From Candidatus Tectimicrobiota bacterium (GTDB lineage: Bacteria; JACPUC01), in NCBI GenBank assembly GCA_016192455.1, contig JACPUC010000006.1, forward strand, positions 186,001-250,000: 64,000 bases of DNA, given 5' to 3'. The notes beneath the pieces are model-generated. The model ran no database searches, was not told the DNA's origin, and was given only the letters and a program-made list of their open reading frames with translations. The first letter of the stretch is position 1, and each line of letters begins with the position of its first letter. Of the stretch, positions 38,102 through 42,892 are shown one piece after another. Both the position numbers and the translations under genes were made by a program.

Positions 38102-38475
38102 CGCTGCGCCGCGGACCTCGGCCACCTTGGCGGCGGCATAAGACCTCGGGTCGCTCCAGCAACCGGCGCCGCCGCAGCGCGAGCGACCGCCTCATCGTGA
38201 CGTCTGCGGCTGCACGCCCTCCGCAGCCGTCTGCCGGACGCGGCAAATGTAATCCAGCAGGCGCACGGTCTCAACAAAGGCGGGCAATTTACAGTCCAGA
38301 TGACTATGTTTACGAGGGGGAAAGAGAGGGGAGTTCGGGACGGGCGGAGCGTGCTTGCGTCTCGCCCGACTCACGCCGGGAGCAGCAGACACGCCAACCC
38401 CTGGAGCAGGGCTGCGAAGGTGCGAGCGCGGCCGTTGCCGACGTTGATCGCCCACGCACAAAGGAGAGTGCCACT

Positions 38476-40464
38476 ATTCCTAAGCTGCACGGCAACCTCA
38501 CGGGGCTGAAACCAAGCCAAGTCAGGCGGATTGAAAACATTCACCGCAGGCGCCTCGATCCGCGGCGCATCATCACCCCCGAGCTGGCGGCCTACCTGGC
38601 GGAGCTGTCGCGCGAGACGGGGCGGCAGCTTGGGGTGCTGGTCGATCGCGGCGGCAAGATCGAGGCGGTGGTCGTTGGTGATGCGCACAGCATCGTGCTG
38701 CCGGACCTGAAGCGGCAGCGCCGTGGGAGCGGGCGGTTTCGCGGCTTGCGTTGCCTGCACACGCACCTGCGCGGCGAGCCCCTGACGCAGGACGACCTCA
38801 CCGACCTGGCGCTCCTCCGGCTCGATCTCATGCTTGCCTTGCAGGTGGGGGAGGACGGCCTGCCGGGCGCCGTCGTCTACGCGCATCTGGTCCCCCTGAC
38901 GGCGGAGGGGGCCGGCGTTGACGGCGGTGACGGCGAGCCCTGGCGCCGCTTCAGCATCCCCCATCCGAATCAGCTCACCGAGAACTTCCTCGACCTCGTC
39001 CGCGCCCTGGAGGAGGAGTTTGCGCGCGCTCCGCAGGCCCGCGATGTGCGGGACGGGCGCGAGCGGGCCATCCTCGTGGGGGTGGCGATCGGCGACCGCG
39101 GCCGCGCCGAGGAATCCCTGGCGGAACTGCGCGAGCTGGCTCGCTCGGCGAACATCCTCGTCCTCGACAGCGTTCTGCAGCGCCGCAAAGCTCTCGACCC
39201 CAGGTTCCTCATCGGTCGCGGCAAGCTCGATGAGCTGATCATCCGCAGCCTGCGGCGCGACGCCGACGTCATTCTCTTCGACCACAACCTCACGCCCGGC
39301 CAGGAGCGCATGATTGCCGATCGCTCCGACCTCGCCATCATCGATCGCACCCAGCTCATCCTCGACATCTTTGCGCAGCGCGCCCGCAGCCGCGACGGCA
39401 AGCTCCAGGTGGAGTTGGCCCAGCTCCGCTACCTCCTGCCACGCCTGGTGGAGAAGGATACGGCCATGTCGCGGCTGACCGGCGGCATTGGCACGCGCGG
39501 CCCGGGCGAGACGAAGCTGGAGATCAACCGGCGCCGTGTGCGCAGCCGCATCCAGGTGCTCGAGCGCGCCCTGGCGCAGCTCTCCCGCGAACGTCAGGGG
39601 AGGCGCGCCCGCCGCCTCAAGGGGGAGCTGCCGATTCTCTCCATCGTCGGCTACACGAACGCCGGCAAGTCGACCCTGCTCAATGCCCTGACGAAGAGCA
39701 CCACGCCGGCCGAGAACCGTCTCTTCTCCACCCTCGATCCGGTCAGCCGCCGCTTGCGCTTCCCGCGCGACCGCGAGGTGATCCTCACCGATACCGTCGG
39801 CTTCCTGAGGGATTTGCCCCCGGACCTCGTGGCCGCCTTCTCCGCCACCCTCGAGGAGCTGCACGACGCTGATCTGCTCCTGCACGTGGCGGACGCCAGC
39901 GATCCGGCCCTGGAGAAGAAGATCGAGGCGGTGGACCGGCTGCTCGAAAGCCTGGAGTTGCATGGCATCCCGCGCCTCCTGGTGCTCAACAAGATGGACG
40001 CGACCAGCCCGGAGACGCTCTCGAACCTGCAGCGGCGCTACGACGCCGTTGCCACCTCGGCGCTCGATCCGAGCACCTTTGGGGCGCTTCTGCGGCGCCT
40101 CCAGGAGCACCTCTGGGCGCGGGGCGAGCGTGCGCTCGCCGCCGGCGAGGGGCGTGATGAGGACGCCTGGAGCGATGCGCGCGAGGAGACCGATACGGCA
40201 GGGACGCAGGCGGAGCGCGAGCTGGCGACGGCAGCGGCGGCAAGTCTGGAAGGCATCGGCGGTCCACTGCACGCCGCCGCGGCGGCAAATGGGGGAGTTG
40301 AGGGCGGAGATGAGTGGCGGTTAGCGAATCAGCCAGTCGAAGCGGAACCAGCCGAGACCGAAGAGCTCCGAGATGGTGGCGAAGACAAGAAGGATAACAT
40401 ACGCGGCCAGCAGCCCGATGACGATCTCGCCCGCGTGCTTTTTATGGAAGGGCAGGGTGCCTGA
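38476..40464 (+). CDS. hflX: Ribosome-splitting GTPase HflX (long N-terminal form), probable ATT start
   Basis: [11 protein letters not shown]-terminus, [42 protein letters not shown] 9 nt upstream of in-frame ATT 38476. Confidence 0.93.
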
Positions 40465-40883: not shown

Positions 40884-40912
40884 ATAGTAAAGCCGCCCGG
40901 CAGCGCTGTCAA
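40884..40912 (-). promoter_or_regulatory. Putative sigma70 promoter (minus strand)
   Basis: TTGACA-17 bp-TACTAT on the reverse strand. Confidence 0.65.
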
Positions 40913-41409
40913 CGCAGAGGCGCGGGCTCGCCACCGGGGAGGGTGAGGGGGATGCGGCGCATTGCGAAGACCTTGTTGAGCAGCCCAGGCAGCATTGGGG
41001 TGAGCGGATAGGCGCTGATCTCCGCGAAGGGAATCCAGCGGGCCTCCACAATGTCGGACCCCGGGCGCAGCCTGCCGGAGATGTACTCGGCGAGGAAATC
41101 AAGGATCGTGTAGTGATGGAAGATGCGCCCCTGCGTGTCGGGCACGATGCGGTCTACGTAACCGATCAGCTCGGTCGGCCTGATGGTGATGCCGCATTCC
41201 TCGAGAATCTCCCGCTGCGCCGCGGCGTGCAGCGTCTCGCCGAGTTGCACGGCGCCGCCGGGGAGGCTCCAGGCGCCGTACGAGGGCTTCGTCGCCAACA
41301 GGAGGCACCCGGCGTGGATGACCACCGCTCCCACGGCGACAATCGGTCGGCTTGGATACTCACGCTGAAAATCCTTCGACGCATCTGGCTGAGTGTTGGC
41401 TGCGGTCAC
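40909..41409 (-). CDS. Nudix hydrolase
   Basis: REYPSRPIVAVGAV; Nudix box WSLPGGAVQLGETLHAAAQREILEECG. Confidence 0.9.
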   Translation of the reverse strand: MTAANTQPDASKDFQREYPSRPIVAVGAVVIHAGCLLLATKPSYGAWSLPGGAVQLGETLHAAAQREILEECGITIRPTELIGYVDRIVPDTQGRIFHHYTILDFLAEYISGRLRPGSDIVEARWIPFAEISAYPLTPMLPGLLNKVFAMRRIPLTLPGGEPAPLR

Positions 41410-41852
41410 GCACTCTCTCCCTGATCCCGCGTGCGGGGCTGGCGAATGAGGGGACTCGCCGCGGCCGGGCAGGAGGCCCCGTTGCCTGCGATGGATACGT
41501 CCGCTGGAGGCTTCTGCTCTGGGCACGTCTGCTCCGAGCGTTTCCGAGCCAGGCGGCGCCGAACGGGGAAACCCCTTGCTTGGGGGTCATCGCCTCAATA
41601 TATTAAAAAGGTTTATGAGGCGCGGGCAAGTCGGCTTCGCAAAGGGCGGCGTGTCGGCCCCGCGCGGCGGCCCGCCTTTTGATGAACCGCCGCATGCCGC
41701 GGCGGCGCGCCGGGGTCCGCGTCAACAGAGGGAGTGGGCGGTGGCTGAGCTTGGGAGCGCCCCGGCGCCGCAGCGTAGGCTCTGCGCCGCCACCACTGAT
41801 CGCGCAAGGACTGCACGCCATCTCATTTGATGACCGCGGAGGGAGCAAACCG

Positions 41853-42092
41853 ATGGCCGATTCGATTACCATGTACTCCACCACCTGGTGAGCCGCCTGC
41901 AGGGTGGCCAAACGGGTTTTGGACCAGCTTGGTGTCGAGTATCGCGTGATTGACGTGGAAGAGGATGAAGAGGCGGCGCGGCGCGTCATGGAGCAGAACA
42001 AGGGTAATCGGACCGTGCCGACGTTCCAGATCGACGGCGCCTGGTACACGAATCCCGATCCGGCGACCCTCGAGCGGTTGGTGCGTGGTTGA
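41853..42092 (+). CDS. Glutaredoxin/mycoredoxin-like (NrdH/YruB-type) selenoprotein, UxxC motif; in-frame TGA 41889-41891 read as Sec
   Basis: MADSITMYSTTW-TGA-AACRVAKRVLDQLGVEYRVIDVEEDEEAARRVMEQNKGNRTVPTFQIDG; RBS GGAG; TGA at the first Cys position of the CxxC; hairpin downstream. Confidence 0.85.
41892..41927 (+). promoter_or_regulatory. Putative bacterial SECIS element
   Basis: CCAAA-CGGGT-TTTGG stem-loop (41908-41922) extended by GGT/ACC; loop starts 22 nt after the UGA and has G at position 2. Confidence 0.55.
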
Positions 42093-42195
42093 GCGCCGTC
42101 GCGGCAAAGGGGCGGCGCCGCGGCGGCGGGGGTCGGCGCTGGCCGCGCGGCGGCCAGGATGAGGTGAAGCGTTGCCTCGGCTGCGGGGTTGAACG

Positions 42196-42453
42196 ATGCG
42201 GGTGACGGTGAAGTTCTTCGCGGCGCTCCGGGAGGTGGTGGGAAGCCGCGAACTGCAGCTCCAACTTGACGACGGCAGCACGGTGGCCAGTCTGCTCGAG
42301 CGTCTCAGCCGCGAGTATCCCCGCCTGGGGGCGCTCTGTCAGGCAGCCGCCCCGACGGTGAACCAGGAGTACAGCTCGCTGGGCGCCGAGCTGCACGAGG
42401 GAGACGAGGTGGTGTTCATCCCCCCGGTGAGTGGAGGCTGCGATGATCTGTAG
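42196..42453 (+). CDS. moaD: Molybdopterin synthase sulfur carrier MoaD with a 4-residue extension after GG
   Basis: MRVTVKFFAALRE...VNQEY...GDEVVFIPPVSGG-CDDL*. Confidence 0.88.
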   Translation: MRVTVKFFAALREVVGSRELQLQLDDGSTVASLLERLSREYPRLGALCQAAAPTVNQEYSSLGAELHEGDEVVFIPPVSGGCDDL

Positions 42454-42892
42454 GATCACCAGAGACAAGATCGACACCCCGGCACTCCTGGAGGCGGTGA
42501 AGCATCCCGAAGCGGGGGCGGTCCTGGCATTTGAAGGGATCGCGCGCAACAACTCGCTCGGGCGGCGCGTTCTCTACCTGGTGTACGACGCCTACCCGGA
42601 AATGGCCGAGAAGAAGCTGCGGCAGATCGGCGAGGAGATCGCCGCCAAGTGGGGCATCACCCGGCTGGCGATGGTGCACCGCATCGGGCGCCTGGAGATC
42701 AGCGAGGCGAGCCTGGTGATCGCGCTGGCGTCGGCGCACCGCGCCGATGGGTTTGCGGCCTGCCGCTACGCCCTGGAGCGCATCAAGGCGATCCTGCCGG
42801 TATGGAAGAAAGAGGTGTGGGAAAACGGTGAGGAGTGGATCGAGGGGAAGGACTTCGCCCCCTTCGACCAGGAGGCGGCCCTGAAACGCTGA
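42443..42892 (+). CDS. moaE: Molybdopterin synthase catalytic subunit
   Basis: GAVLAFEGIAR, AYPEMA, HRIGRL, SAHR, PVWKKE. Confidence 0.95.
   Translation: MICRITRDKIDTPALLEAVKHPEAGAVLAFEGIARNNSLGRRVLYLVYDAYPEMAEKKLRQIGEEIAAKWGITRLAMVHRIGRLEISEASLVIALASAHRADGFAACRYALERIKAILPVWKKEVWENGEEWIEGKDFAPFDQEAALKR

What the first reader, a model, noticed from the sequence alone, without database searches (positions are those of the whole stretch)
41853..42092. Hidden selenoprotein: mycoredoxin/NrdH-like glutaredoxin with a W-U-A-A-C active site
Seen: the ORF track splits this gene into two fragments (41679..41891 and 41904..42092). Read through from ATG 41853 (RBS GGAG), it gives a continuous 79-aa thioredoxin-fold protein, ITMYSTTW-TGA-AAC...GNRTVPT. 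The TGA falls exactly on the attacking Cys of the CxxC. A stem-loop (CCAAA-CGGGT-TTTGG) lies 22 nt downstream, and the codons there are unusually A/T-rich for this genome (AAA, GTT, TTG, CTT), as expected if RNA structure constrains them. Known: bacterial Sec insertion needs a UGA plus an in-ORF SECIS, and Grx-like UxxC selenoproteins exist. Inference: this is a Sec-containing redoxin that pipelines would miss.
Basis: partly seen in the sequence, partly recalled or inferred. Interest (0 to 1): 0.85.

Follow-up and report, generated by a model that had tools for sequence, protein, structure and literature searches.

The report
Selenocysteine glutaredoxin-like redoxin gene, missed by gene callers
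A small redox protein gene that looks broken by a stop codon almost certainly encodes selenocysteine at its active site, in a groundwater bacterium that carries many such selenium proteins; the kind of protein is already known.

Summary
ATG 41853 to TGA 42092 reads as one 79-aa glutaredoxin-fold protein if TGA 41889-41891 is decoded. That TGA falls on the first Cys of W-C-x-x-C, which is Cys in 121 of 127 short homologues.

The reading as a selenoprotein is well supported:
- The genome holds tRNA-Sec, selA, selB and selD, and selD itself carries a TGA at its active site.
- 21 of 80 metagenome homologues have TGA at the same codon. One is a syntenic orthologue.
- All 21 carry a CCAAGA-GGU-UCUUGG hairpin at the same place as the window's CCAAA-CGGGU-UUUGG. 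One stem pair differs on both sides, G-C to A-U.
- Codons on both sides of the TGA show fewer amino-acid changes than silent ones.
- TGA is otherwise the commonest stop in this genome.

Selenocysteine glutaredoxins with a U-x-x-C motif (PF00462) are a known family, so this is a new member of a known kind. The protein scores below the curated cut-offs for mycoredoxin, NrdH and UXX-star.

Side finding: the genome has at least 16 selenoprotein genes, including all three of its glutaredoxin-family genes, and it is the only member of its phylum in the held set.

The parts
41838..41845 (+). Ribosome-binding site GGAGGGAG, 7 nt upstream of the ATG
   Evidence: Read directly from the sequence
41853..42092 (+). 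Full coding sequence of the 79-aa glutaredoxin-fold selenoprotein, terminal TGA 42090-42092 included
   Evidence: Translation. Pfam Glutaredoxin PF00462 at E 5e-16, 59.1 bits against a cut-off of 22.9. AlphaFold model with pLDDT 95.2 and a beta-alpha-beta-alpha-beta-beta-alpha fold.
41889..41891 (+). In-frame TGA, predicted selenocysteine codon (U13), at the attacking residue of the U-A-A-C motif
   Evidence: Aligns with Cys in 121 of 127 homologues. TGA at the same codon in 21 of 80 metagenome loci. In the model, residue 13 sits directly before helix 14-26.
41898..41900 (+). TGC, resolving Cys16 of the U-x-x-C motif
   Evidence: Cys in 119 of 127 homologues.
41908..41922 (+). Predicted bacterial SECIS hairpin CCAAA-CGGGU-UUUGG. 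It may extend to 41906-41925 with a bulged A.
   Evidence: All 21 Sec-type homologues have CCAAGA-GGU-UCUUGG in the same register. One stem pair changes G-C to A-U on both sides, and the GG in the loop is invariant. The loop starts 21 nt after the UGA. Rare codons AAA, GTT and TTG form the stem.
42012..42020 (+). Codons for T54-V55-P56, the conserved T-V-P turn of the thioredoxin fold (the cis-Pro label is recalled, not tested)
   Evidence: P56 is invariant in the 60-sequence alignment A3. V55, P56 and T57 are invariant in A1.
40909..41526 (-). Upstream neighbour on the opposite strand: NUDIX hydrolase
   Evidence: Pfam NUDIX at E 1.3e-17. 68% identical to the gene at the same relative place in locus L046.
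42196..42453 (+). Downstream neighbour: MoaD/ThiS-family sulfur carrier. MoaE follows at 42431-42892.
   Evidence: Pfam ThiS at 3.8e-17 and MoaE at 7.8e-37. 69% identical to the downstream gene in L046.

Best explanation
Window 41853-42092 is an intact gene for a 79-residue glutaredoxin-fold thiol-disulfide oxidoreductase. Its attacking active-site residue is selenocysteine, encoded by UGA 41889-41891.

Translation (inferred from the standard bacterial pathway). When the ribosome reaches the UGA, SelB carrying Sec-tRNA(Sec) is recruited by the in-frame hairpin at 41908-41922, whose G-rich loop begins 21 nt downstream. Sec is inserted instead of termination. The second TGA at 42090 has no such element and ends the protein.

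Chemistry (inferred from the fold and the U-x-x-C motif). The selenolate of U13, at the N-terminus of helix 1, attacks a substrate disulfide or a mixed disulfide. Cys16 resolves the selenenylsulfide intermediate. The oxidised Se-S form is then re-reduced by a thioredoxin-reductase-type enzyme or an unidentified low-molecular-weight thiol.

Shown here: the gene, the fold, the Sec/Cys pattern among homologues, the conserved hairpin, the complete Sec machinery, and many other selenoprotein genes in the same genome. Not shown: actual selenium insertion, the substrate and the reductant.
For: 1. Family and fold. Pfam Glutaredoxin at 5e-16. The best solved relative by sequence is Mrx1 Rv3198.1, 2lqo, at E 3.8e-11. 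The model has pLDDT 95.2 with residue 13 directly before helix 14-26. Foldseek gives Mrx1 2lqo (TMq 0.77, 38% identity), NrdH 4fiw (TMq 0.80, rmsd 1.4) and many glutaredoxins.

2. The TGA lies on the invariant first Cys: 121 of 127 homologues have Cys there.

3. Sec machinery in the same genome. tRNA-Sec at C8:15301-15393 scores 75.5 bits against a cut-off of 47, and ARAGORN calls it SeC (tca). selA scores 596 bits, selB 366 bits and selD 389 bits.

4. Independent Sec forms. 21 of 80 metagenome loci have TGA at exactly this codon (W-U-G-Y-C or W-U-P-I-C), and none has another internal TGA. Locus L046 is a syntenic orthologue: NUDIX 68% identical, redoxin 61%, MoaD 69%.

5. Hairpin. All 21 Sec loci have 6 of 6 stem pairs of CCAAGA-GGU-UCUUGG at +20..+34 from the U of UGA. 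The window has 5 of 6 in the same register, with G-C replaced by A-U. Among 42 distinct Cys-type sequences only 6 have 6 of 6 pairs, all of them close kin of the Sec clade. The other 36 have 1 to 5 pairs, including forms that encode the same A-K-R-F-L peptide. The loop, stem and spacing fit three of the four criteria of the published bacterial SECIS model (passages of PMC13188914).

6. Selection on both sides of the TGA, window against L046. Upstream codons 1-12: nonsynonymous 0.10 against synonymous 0.57 per site. Downstream codons 14-79: 0.31 against 0.77.

7. Sec decoding is in wide use in this genome. SelD has U at A-G-U-A-A-K followed by a GGG-loop hairpin. Also carrying a TGA at the redox motif are 3 of 3 PF00462 matches, 8 of 13 PF00578 matches and 4 of 11 PF02627 matches.

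8. The genetic code is not changed. TGA ends 2696 of 4667 open stretches of 300 codons or more.

9. Public gene calls of close relatives are truncated just after this position (P0002, P0004, P0006, P0022, P0075). This is as expected if their TGA is read as a stop.
Against: No direct evidence of selenium insertion or of expression. No RNA run was listed.

The window's hairpin is weak on its own. It folds at -4.6 kcal/mol locally, above the -7.5 kcal/mol limit of the published model if that limit applies to the minimal hairpin. The 62-nt fold is no better than shuffles, z = -0.45.

Covariation support is thin. Two pairs change on both sides, and 26 of 500 shuffles do as well. Six Cys-type relatives keep the hairpin, so it is not exclusive to Sec forms.

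The two assemblies that confirm the TGA come from the study that may be the source of this genome, so they are not independent. The base at 41889-41891 in the two relatives laid (X5, X6) was not printed.

The genome is a metagenome bin, 88% complete with 2.3% contamination, so linking this contig to the Sec genes on other contigs rests on the binning. The reductant is unknown: MshC was not over its cut-off and GshB was not found.
Confidence: 0.9

Rival explanations
1. A pseudogene: a Cys-type redoxin gene inactivated by a TGC/TGT-to-TGA nonsense mutation, with the remains not yet decayed.
For: A single base change turns TGC or TGT into TGA. Gene callers split the gene. The hairpin is weak by energy.
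Against: The same TGA at the same codon occurs in 21 of 80 homologous loci, including a syntenic orthologue at 61% identity. There is no other stop or frameshift in the 79 codons. Amino-acid changes are rarer than silent ones on both sides of the TGA. The downstream hairpin is conserved. The Sec machinery is complete and at least 15 other genes carry a TGA at a redox residue.
Confidence: 0.04
2. A sequencing or assembly error: the real codon is TGC or TGT, and the protein is an ordinary C-x-x-C redoxin.
For: The genome is a metagenome bin. The only assemblies that confirm the base come from the same study.
Against: Two separately assembled samples give identical sequence over 1001 bases, at word depths of 26.9 and 17.6. 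A relative's gene call at 89% identity (P0002) starts at the GTG just after this codon, as expected if it has the stop too. The orthologue L046 from another data set has TGA.
Confidence: 0.03
3. The UGA is real but is not decoded as Sec here. Translation either stops after 12 residues and a 62-aa fragment starts at GTG 41904, or another amino acid is put in by near-cognate read-through.
For: The ORF 41904..42092 has a start codon. There are no expression data.
Against: The 62-aa fragment would lack strand 1 and the whole active site of the fold. The 12 codons before the UGA are conserved at the protein level. Machinery and a SECIS-like element are both present.
Confidence: 0.03

Closest known systems
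Selenocysteine-containing glutaredoxins (PF00462, U-x-x-C). They are listed among prokaryotic selenoprotein families in the review PMC13188914 and were first seen in numbers in the Sargasso Sea survey PMC1088965 (passages read). The review cites biochemical work on a clostridial Sec-Grx; that paper is not held.
   Same: Same Pfam family, same U-x-x-C motif at the start of helix 1, and an in-ORF hairpin with G in a small apical loop about 20 nt after the UGA. Cys-type homologues are widespread.
   Different: This protein belongs to the W-C-x-x-C / G-N-R-T-V-P-T branch nearest to actinobacterial mycoredoxin, not to the classical C-P-Y-C glutaredoxins. It is only 27% identical over the structural alignment to the clostridial cGrx1 chain 7c10. 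Its reductant is unknown, since neither GshB nor MshC was found. I could not check whether this subfamily is among the sequences already published, because supplements are closed and the groundwater survey cited in the review is not held.
Mycoredoxin-1 (Mrx1, Rv3198.1; PDB 2lqo; NCBIfam TIGR02200)
   Same: Best solved relative by sequence, E 3.8e-11. 38% identity and TMq 0.77 by structure. Similar length, with the W-C-x-x-C and G-N-R-T-V-P-T motifs.
   Different: Scores 77.2 bits against a curated cut-off of 89.5. Has Sec instead of Cys. The host is not an actinobacterium by placement, being the only member of its phylum in the held set. No MshC match is over the cut-off, so dependence on mycothiol is unlikely.
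NrdH-redoxin (TIGR02194; PDB 4fiw, 1h75, 1r7h)
   Same: Small glutaredoxin-fold protein of about 75-80 residues. Closest by backbone, rmsd 1.4 over 72 columns to 4fiw. NrdH is reduced by thioredoxin reductase rather than by glutathione (recalled), which is a plausible model for a host without GshB.
   Different: Scores 40.1 bits against a cut-off of 85.75. No ribonucleotide reductase genes lie next to it; the neighbours are NUDIX, MoaD and MoaE.
UXX-star glutaredoxin-like selenoproteins (NF041212, NF041114, NF041211, NF047338)
   Same: Distant glutaredoxin-like selenoproteins. One typical member is present elsewhere in this genome at C23:136803-136982, with T-U-P-Y-T and a C-terminal U-E-V-stop.
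   Different: The window protein scores 42.2 bits against a cut-off of 66. It has U-x-x-C rather than U-x-x-T, and no U-x-x-stop at its end.

Membership tests
Bacterial selenoprotein gene (UGA decoded as Sec) | In-frame UGA at a position where homologues have Cys | tested here: met
   121 of 127 homologues have Cys at the aligned column, 1 has Ser and 5 are truncated calls
Bacterial selenoprotein gene (UGA decoded as Sec) | Other, independent homologues carry UGA at the same codon with intact flanking frame | tested here: met
   21 of 80 metagenome loci, 9 distinct over 45 nt, including the syntenic orthologue L046. Nonsynonymous changes are below synonymous ones on both sides.
Bacterial selenoprotein gene (UGA decoded as Sec) | SECIS geometry as in the published model: apical loop 3-9 nt, upper stem 4-16 bp, G in the first two loop positions, 16-37 nt between UGA and loop (PMC13188914) | tested here: met
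   Window: 5-bp stem, loop CGGGU, 21 nt spacing. Homologues: 6-8 bp stem, loop GGU, 22 nt spacing. Checked by hand; bSECISearch itself was not available.
Bacterial selenoprotein gene (UGA decoded as Sec) | SECIS free energy of -7.5 kcal/mol or lower (same model) | tested here: inconclusive
   The window's local hairpin folds at -4.6 kcal/mol; homologues range from -6.2 to -10.7. The 62 nt after the UGA fold at -21.1. It is unclear which stretch the published limit applies to.
Bacterial selenoprotein gene (UGA decoded as Sec) | selA, selB, selC (tRNA-Sec) and selD present in the genome | tested here: met
   All four are over their curated cut-offs. They lie on other contigs of a bin that is 88% complete with 2.3% contamination.
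Bacterial selenoprotein gene (UGA decoded as Sec) | Selenium actually incorporated at the UGA | not testable with these tools
   Needs 75Se labelling or mass spectrometry
Glutaredoxin family PF00462 | Profile match over the gathering score, and a thioredoxin-type fold with the redox motif at the start of helix 1 | tested here: met
   59.1 bits against a cut-off of 22.9. Model pLDDT 95.2 with E5-9, H14-26, E31-34, H39-48, E57-60, E63-66, H70-79. Glutaredoxin, Mrx1 and NrdH chains top Foldseek.
Mycoredoxin (TIGR02200) | Score over the curated cut-off of 89.5 bits | tested here: not met
   77.2 bits
Mycoredoxin (TIGR02200) | Host makes mycothiol (MshC present) | tested here: not met
   The best TIGR03447 match is 309 bits against a cut-off of 485.1, and it is the CysRS gene. 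The genome is 88% complete.
NrdH-redoxin (TIGR02194) | Score over the curated cut-off of 85.75 bits | tested here: not met
   40.1 bits. No nrd genes among the neighbours examined.
UXX-star glutaredoxin-like selenoprotein (NF041212) | Score over the cut-off of 66 bits, and a C-terminal U-x-x-stop | tested here: not met
   42.2 bits. The C-terminus is ...L-V-R-G-stop.

The most novel reading that the evidence does not exclude
This deep-branching groundwater bacterium is the only member of its phylum in the held genome set. It may have moved its whole glutaredoxin-type redox layer to selenium. All three PF00462 genes, 8 of 13 AhpC/TSA-type genes and 4 of 11 AhpD-type genes carry Sec, while no glutathione or mycothiol synthesis gene was found. 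In this lineage the W-U-x-x-C redoxin may also be a dedicated partner of the adjacent MoaD/MoaE molybdopterin synthase, for example by reducing a persulfide or acyl-disulfide on the sulfur carrier. The NUDIX - Sec-redoxin - MoaD order is kept in the orthologous locus L046.
Probability: 0.12. Interest if true: 0.6.

Novelty: new member of a known kind. Interest (0 to 1): 0.42.

Why it matters
Gene callers cut this gene in two. In public protein collections its relatives appear as headless fragments of 57-66 aa without an active site (P0002, P0004, P0006, P0022, P0075). No curated NCBIfam model reaches its cut-off on this subfamily, so automatic selenoprotein annotation would probably miss it.

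Recognising the W-U-x-x-C branch, with about 20 soil and groundwater members found here, would let annotators rescue these genes. It also adds a well-defined SECIS example with a GGU loop and a CCAAGA stem.

It further marks this genome as selenium-dependent in much of its thiol-redox network, which bears on the ecology and cultivation of a lineage with no cultured relatives. It does not change what is known about how Sec is decoded or about what Sec-glutaredoxins are.

Tried and rejected
- Folding energy as evidence for the hairpin. The region folds no better than shuffles (z = -0.45), so the argument rests on comparison with homologues.
- Covariation statistics. Only 2 of 7 pairs change on both sides, and 26 of 500 shuffles do as well. 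This is suggestive, not decisive.
- RNA evidence. No RNA holder was listed.
- The base at the TGA in relatives X5 and X6. Their contigs cover 41828-42077 and 41828-42500 (table 8), but the rows for that stretch were among the 50 differences not shown, and the tool's single call was used.
- The search for related loci in genome contigs. With alignment A1 it failed for lack of a conserved stretch. Repeated with the single protein, it found one distant Cys-type relative in a Chloroflexota MAG (L126), which was of no use for the Sec question.
- The genome search among 60 'relatives'. All are only 'same domain' kin. 20 have weak glutaredoxin matches, 4 of them with a TGA inside, which I did not follow up. 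The phylum-level search returned only the genome itself.
- Alternative code (TGA as a sense codon genome-wide). Rejected, because TGA is the commonest end of long open stretches.
- Mycoredoxin, NrdH and UXX-star membership. Rejected on curated cut-offs.
- A 'TGA inside' the CysRS match. It is only the stop codon of the upstream gene.
The paper on the clostridial Sec-Grx (PMC3062254) is not held. The groundwater MAG selenoprotein survey cited in the review did not appear in the listing and was not seen, and supplements are closed. I therefore cannot say whether this gene or subfamily has already been listed.
- Literature on a Sec-mycoredoxin. The search 'mycoredoxin' + 'selenocysteine' gave 6 papers. 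By title and abstract start, none is about a Sec-mycoredoxin.

Full report
**What is in the sequence**

ORFs 41679..41891 and 41904..42092 lie in one frame, separated by TGA 41889-41891. From ATG 41853, which follows GGAGGGAG 41838-41845 after a 7-nt spacer, the frame gives 79 residues: MADSITMYSTTW-U-AACRVAKRVL...GNRTVPT...LVRG. It ends at a second TGA at 42090-42092.

The protein is a glutaredoxin-family member (PF00462, E 5e-16, 59.1 bits against a cut-off of 22.9). The nearest curated NCBIfam models are all below their cut-offs:

| Model | Score (bits) | Cut-off (bits) |
|---|---|---|
| Mycoredoxin TIGR02200 | 77.2 | 89.5 |
| YruB-type TIGR02196 | 65.3 | 88.55 |
| NrdH TIGR02194 | 40.1 | 85.75 |
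| UXX-star NF041212 | 42.2 | 66 |

The closest solved relative by sequence is Mrx1 of M. tuberculosis (2lqo, E 3.8e-11). An AlphaFold model built on 60 homologues has pLDDT 95.2 and the elements E5-9, H14-26, E31-34, H39-48, E57-60, E63-66 and H70-79. Residue 13 therefore sits at the N-terminal end of helix 1, where the attacking Cys of this fold lies. Foldseek returns glutaredoxins, Mrx1 (TMq 0.77, 38% identity) and NrdH (4fiw, TMq 0.80, rmsd 1.4).

**Is the TGA on the catalytic residue?**

A full HMMER scan of 1.84 billion representatives gave 2217 hits at E of 0.001 or less. I aligned the 127 fetched homologues of 140 aa or less. This left out 28 longer, multi-domain hits among the 155 proteins fetched.
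- 121 have Cys at the column of the TGA and 1 has Ser.
- 5 are gene calls that begin only after that column (P0002, P0004, P0006, P0022, P0075).
- Trp precedes the position in 121, and Cys follows at +3 in 119.

P0002 is 89% identical and starts at the same M-A-K-R as the window's second fragment. P0075 starts at x-Y-C, directly after the position. This is what a gene caller produces when it meets a TGA there.

**Sec machinery and code**

The window's genome (G000) has 4.46 Mb in 31 contigs, is 88% complete and has 2.3% contamination. It holds all four Sec genes, each over its curated cut-off:

| Gene | Place | Score (bits) |
|---|---|---|
| tRNA-Sec | C8:15301-15393 | 75.5 (cut-off 47) |
| selA | C23 | 596 |
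| selB | C23, adjacent to selA | 366 |
| selD | C3 | 389 |

ARAGORN calls the tRNA SeC with anticodon TCA. SelD itself has a TGA at A-G-U-A-A-K, followed by a 6-bp stem with a GGG loop that starts 17 nt after the UGA.

TGA is not a sense codon genome-wide. It ends 2696 of 4667 open stretches of 300 codons or more, against 1380 for TAG and 591 for TAA.

**Homologues with TGA**

A scan of JGI metagenome contigs with alignment A1 kept 80 loci. Reading each in frame gives:
- 21 with TGA at exactly this codon: 20 with W-U-G-Y-C and L046 with W-U-P-I-C.
- 59 with Cys: 58 with W-C, and L088 with S-C-G-D-C.
- No Sec-type locus with another internal TGA.

The Sec forms and their nearest Cys forms are closely related. 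This is the classical Sec/Cys pattern.

L046 is the closest relative at 61% identity, and it is syntenic. It has a NUDIX gene on the opposite strand upstream (68% identical to window 40909-41526) and MoaD downstream (69% identical to window 42196-42453). An orthologue that has diverged to near-saturation at silent sites therefore still keeps the TGA.

By the Nei-Gojobori count, window against L046:

| Region | Nonsynonymous per site | Synonymous per site |
|---|---|---|
| Codons 1-12, before the TGA | 0.10 | 0.57 |
| Codons 14-79, after the TGA | 0.31 | 0.77 |

Pairs within the soil clade give 0.11-0.15 against 0.65-0.71 upstream and 0.06-0.07 against 0.60-0.68 downstream. Both halves are kept as protein, which a nonsense-mutated gene would not show.

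**The SECIS**

All 21 Sec loci (9 distinct sequences over 45 nt) carry CCAAGA-GGU-UCUUGG at +20..+34 counted from the U of UGA, with 6 of 6 stem pairs. Some extend to 7 or 8 pairs.

The window has CCAAA-CGGGU-UUUGG in the same register (41908-41922). The fifth pair is A-U where the others have G-C, a change on both sides. The sixth pair is lost into a 5-nt loop. G26 and G27 are invariant.

The published bacterial SECIS model (passages of PMC13188914) asks for four things:
- a 3-9 nt loop;
- a 4-16 bp stem;
- a G in the first two loop positions, often followed by G or U;
- 16-37 nt between the UGA and the loop, with a free energy of -7.5 kcal/mol or lower.

The geometry is met. The energy is not met by the window's minimal hairpin (-4.6 kcal/mol; homologues -6.2 to -10.7).

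As a control I looked at the 42 distinct Cys-type sequences. Six have 6 of 6 pairs, and all six are close kin of the Sec clade. One has 5 pairs, 9 have 4, 14 have 3, 11 have 2 and 1 has 1. Several of the low scorers encode the same A-K-R-F-L peptide. The hairpin therefore goes with the Sec clade and is not forced by the protein sequence. Because the clade is one lineage, this is not many independent observations.

The formal covariation test is weak, with 26 of 500 shuffles as good. The fold of the region is no better than shuffles.

The stem is built from rare codons: AAA at 15%, GTT at 8% and TTG at 6% of their amino acids.

The other selenoprotein genes I looked at in this genome mostly show hairpins with G-containing small loops about 17-22 nt after their UGAs. 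That is consistent with one SelB recognising them all.

**Reads**

Logan contigs of two samples (X1 and X2, at word depths 26.9 and 17.6) match 41500-42500 with no difference. They come from the study that may be the source of this DNA, so they show that the assembly is reproducible but are not independent support. Two relatives from other studies (X5, X6) cover the gene, but the letters at the TGA were not printed.

**Context and function**

Around the gene lie HflX (38197-40464), an unassigned ORF, NUDIX (on the minus strand), the redoxin, MoaD, MoaE, a PHP-domain protein, an unassigned ORF, a MoaB/Mog-type protein and MoeA.

The soil clade has a different setting: ECF sigma-like and anti-sigma-like ORFs, a protein of about 552 aa, the redoxin, and then a UvrA-like ORF. 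These names are from the first residues only and were not tested. The molybdopterin link is therefore limited to the window's lineage.

I found no GshB, and no MshC over its cut-off, in this 88%-complete genome. The most likely reductant is a thioredoxin-reductase-type enzyme, as for NrdH (recalled), or an unknown thiol. This part is inference.

**Comparison and novelty**

Sec-containing glutaredoxins (PF00462, U-x-x-C) are an established family. There were ten sequences in the Sargasso Sea survey (PMC1088965, passages). The family is listed, with biochemical references, in the 2026 review (PMC13188914, passages).

The same review reports a large selenoprotein scan of groundwater MAGs and a Methylomirabilota MAG with 63 predicted selenoprotein genes. 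I could not see those data.

A search for 'mycoredoxin' plus 'selenocysteine' gave 6 papers, none about such a protein by title and abstract start. The W-U-x-x-C mycoredoxin-like branch may therefore be undescribed as such, but it is a new member of a known kind.

**Side finding**

The genome is rich in selenoprotein genes. I checked the residue context of each of the following:

| Family | Matches with TGA at the redox motif | Motifs |
|---|---|---|
| SelD | 1 gene | A-G-U-A-A-K |
| Glutaredoxin PF00462 | 3 of 3 | window W-U-A-A-C; C27 T-U-R-P-C; C23 T-U-P-Y-T plus C-terminal U-E-V-stop (UXX-star type) |
| AhpC/TSA PF00578 | 8 of 13 | U-G-D-C, T-P-G-U, W-U-K-S-C, W-U-P-Y-C twice, W-U-P-K-U, W-U-Q-S-C, T-U-P-P-Y |
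| CMD/AhpD PF02627 | 4 of 11 | C-x-x-U |
| Thioredoxin PF00085 | 0 of 4 | - |
| Formate dehydrogenase TIGR01591 | 0 of 32 | - |

That makes at least 16 genes.

A crude screen of my own required coding score on both sides, a redox motif and a SECIS-like hairpin. It gave 23 TGA sites against 3 TAG sites. It recovered only 7 of the 16 and missed the window gene, so it is insensitive and the true number is probably higher.

The genome is the only one of its phylum in the held GTDB set.

**Verdict**

It is a new member of a known kind and of moderate interest.

Noticed in passing
Own genome G000: C3:190937; C27:118646-118825(-); C23:136803-136982(+); eight PF00578 sites (C31:75970, C5:40802, C30:65892, C27:116562, C23:22490, C9:76107, C20:47929, C1:78518); four PF02627 sites (C7:104265, C6:8860, C3:18187, C31:112044): The genome carries at least 16 genes with an in-frame TGA exactly at a redox-motif residue: SelD, all 3 glutaredoxin-family genes, 8 of 13 AhpC/TSA-type genes and 4 of 11 AhpD/CMD-type genes (C-x-x-U). 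One gene has U-x-x-U and one looks deiodinase-like (T-U-P-P-Y). A crude screen gave 23 TGA candidates against 3 TAG controls, so more are likely.
   Followed up: partly
G000:C23:136803-136982 (+): A typical UXX-star glutaredoxin-like gene with two predicted Sec residues: T-U-P-Y-T at the active site and U-E-V-stop at the C-terminus.
   Followed up: partly
Whole genome G000: A phylum-level search returned only the genome itself, and all 60 'relatives' offered were kin only at domain level. This groundwater bin is therefore the sole representative of its phylum in the held GTDB r232 set.
   Followed up: no
window 42196-42453 and 42431-42892: The MoaD/ThiS-family protein does not end at its G-G. 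It runs on for four residues (..V-S-G-G-C-D-D-L) and overlaps the MoaE start by 23 nt. The orthologue in L046 also continues past G-G (..S-G-G-R-D). A tail after G-G would need removal before the carrier can be activated; this is inference.
   Followed up: no
window 42112-42145: The G+C-rich intergenic stretch after the redoxin gene attracts many short pieces of unrelated contigs. Summed word depth is about 250 against 27 for its flanks in run X1, and all four runs show a rise. It looks like a repeated G+C-rich element or a low-complexity match.
   Followed up: no
L047-L074 (soil metagenome loci), e.g. L055:3001-3231: The soil clade of the redoxin sits between a gene of about 552 aa (itself preceded by ECF-sigma-like and anti-sigma-like ORFs) and a UvrA-like gene. 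These names come from the first residues only. Within this clade Sec and Cys forms are mixed, and six Cys forms still carry the full SECIS-type hairpin, which suggests recent switches between Sec and Cys.
   Followed up: partly
G000:C15:2734-3738 (-): the genome search flagged '1 TGA inside' for the CysRS match. It is only the stop codon of the upstream gene in the same frame. Such flags need checking by eye.
   Followed up: yes
G006:C99:5049-5270, G040:C245:1922-2137, G040:C64:1398-1610: Three weak glutaredoxin-like matches in two unrelated genomes of the 'relatives' sample also carry one TGA inside the match. They may be further Sec-redoxins.
   Followed up: no
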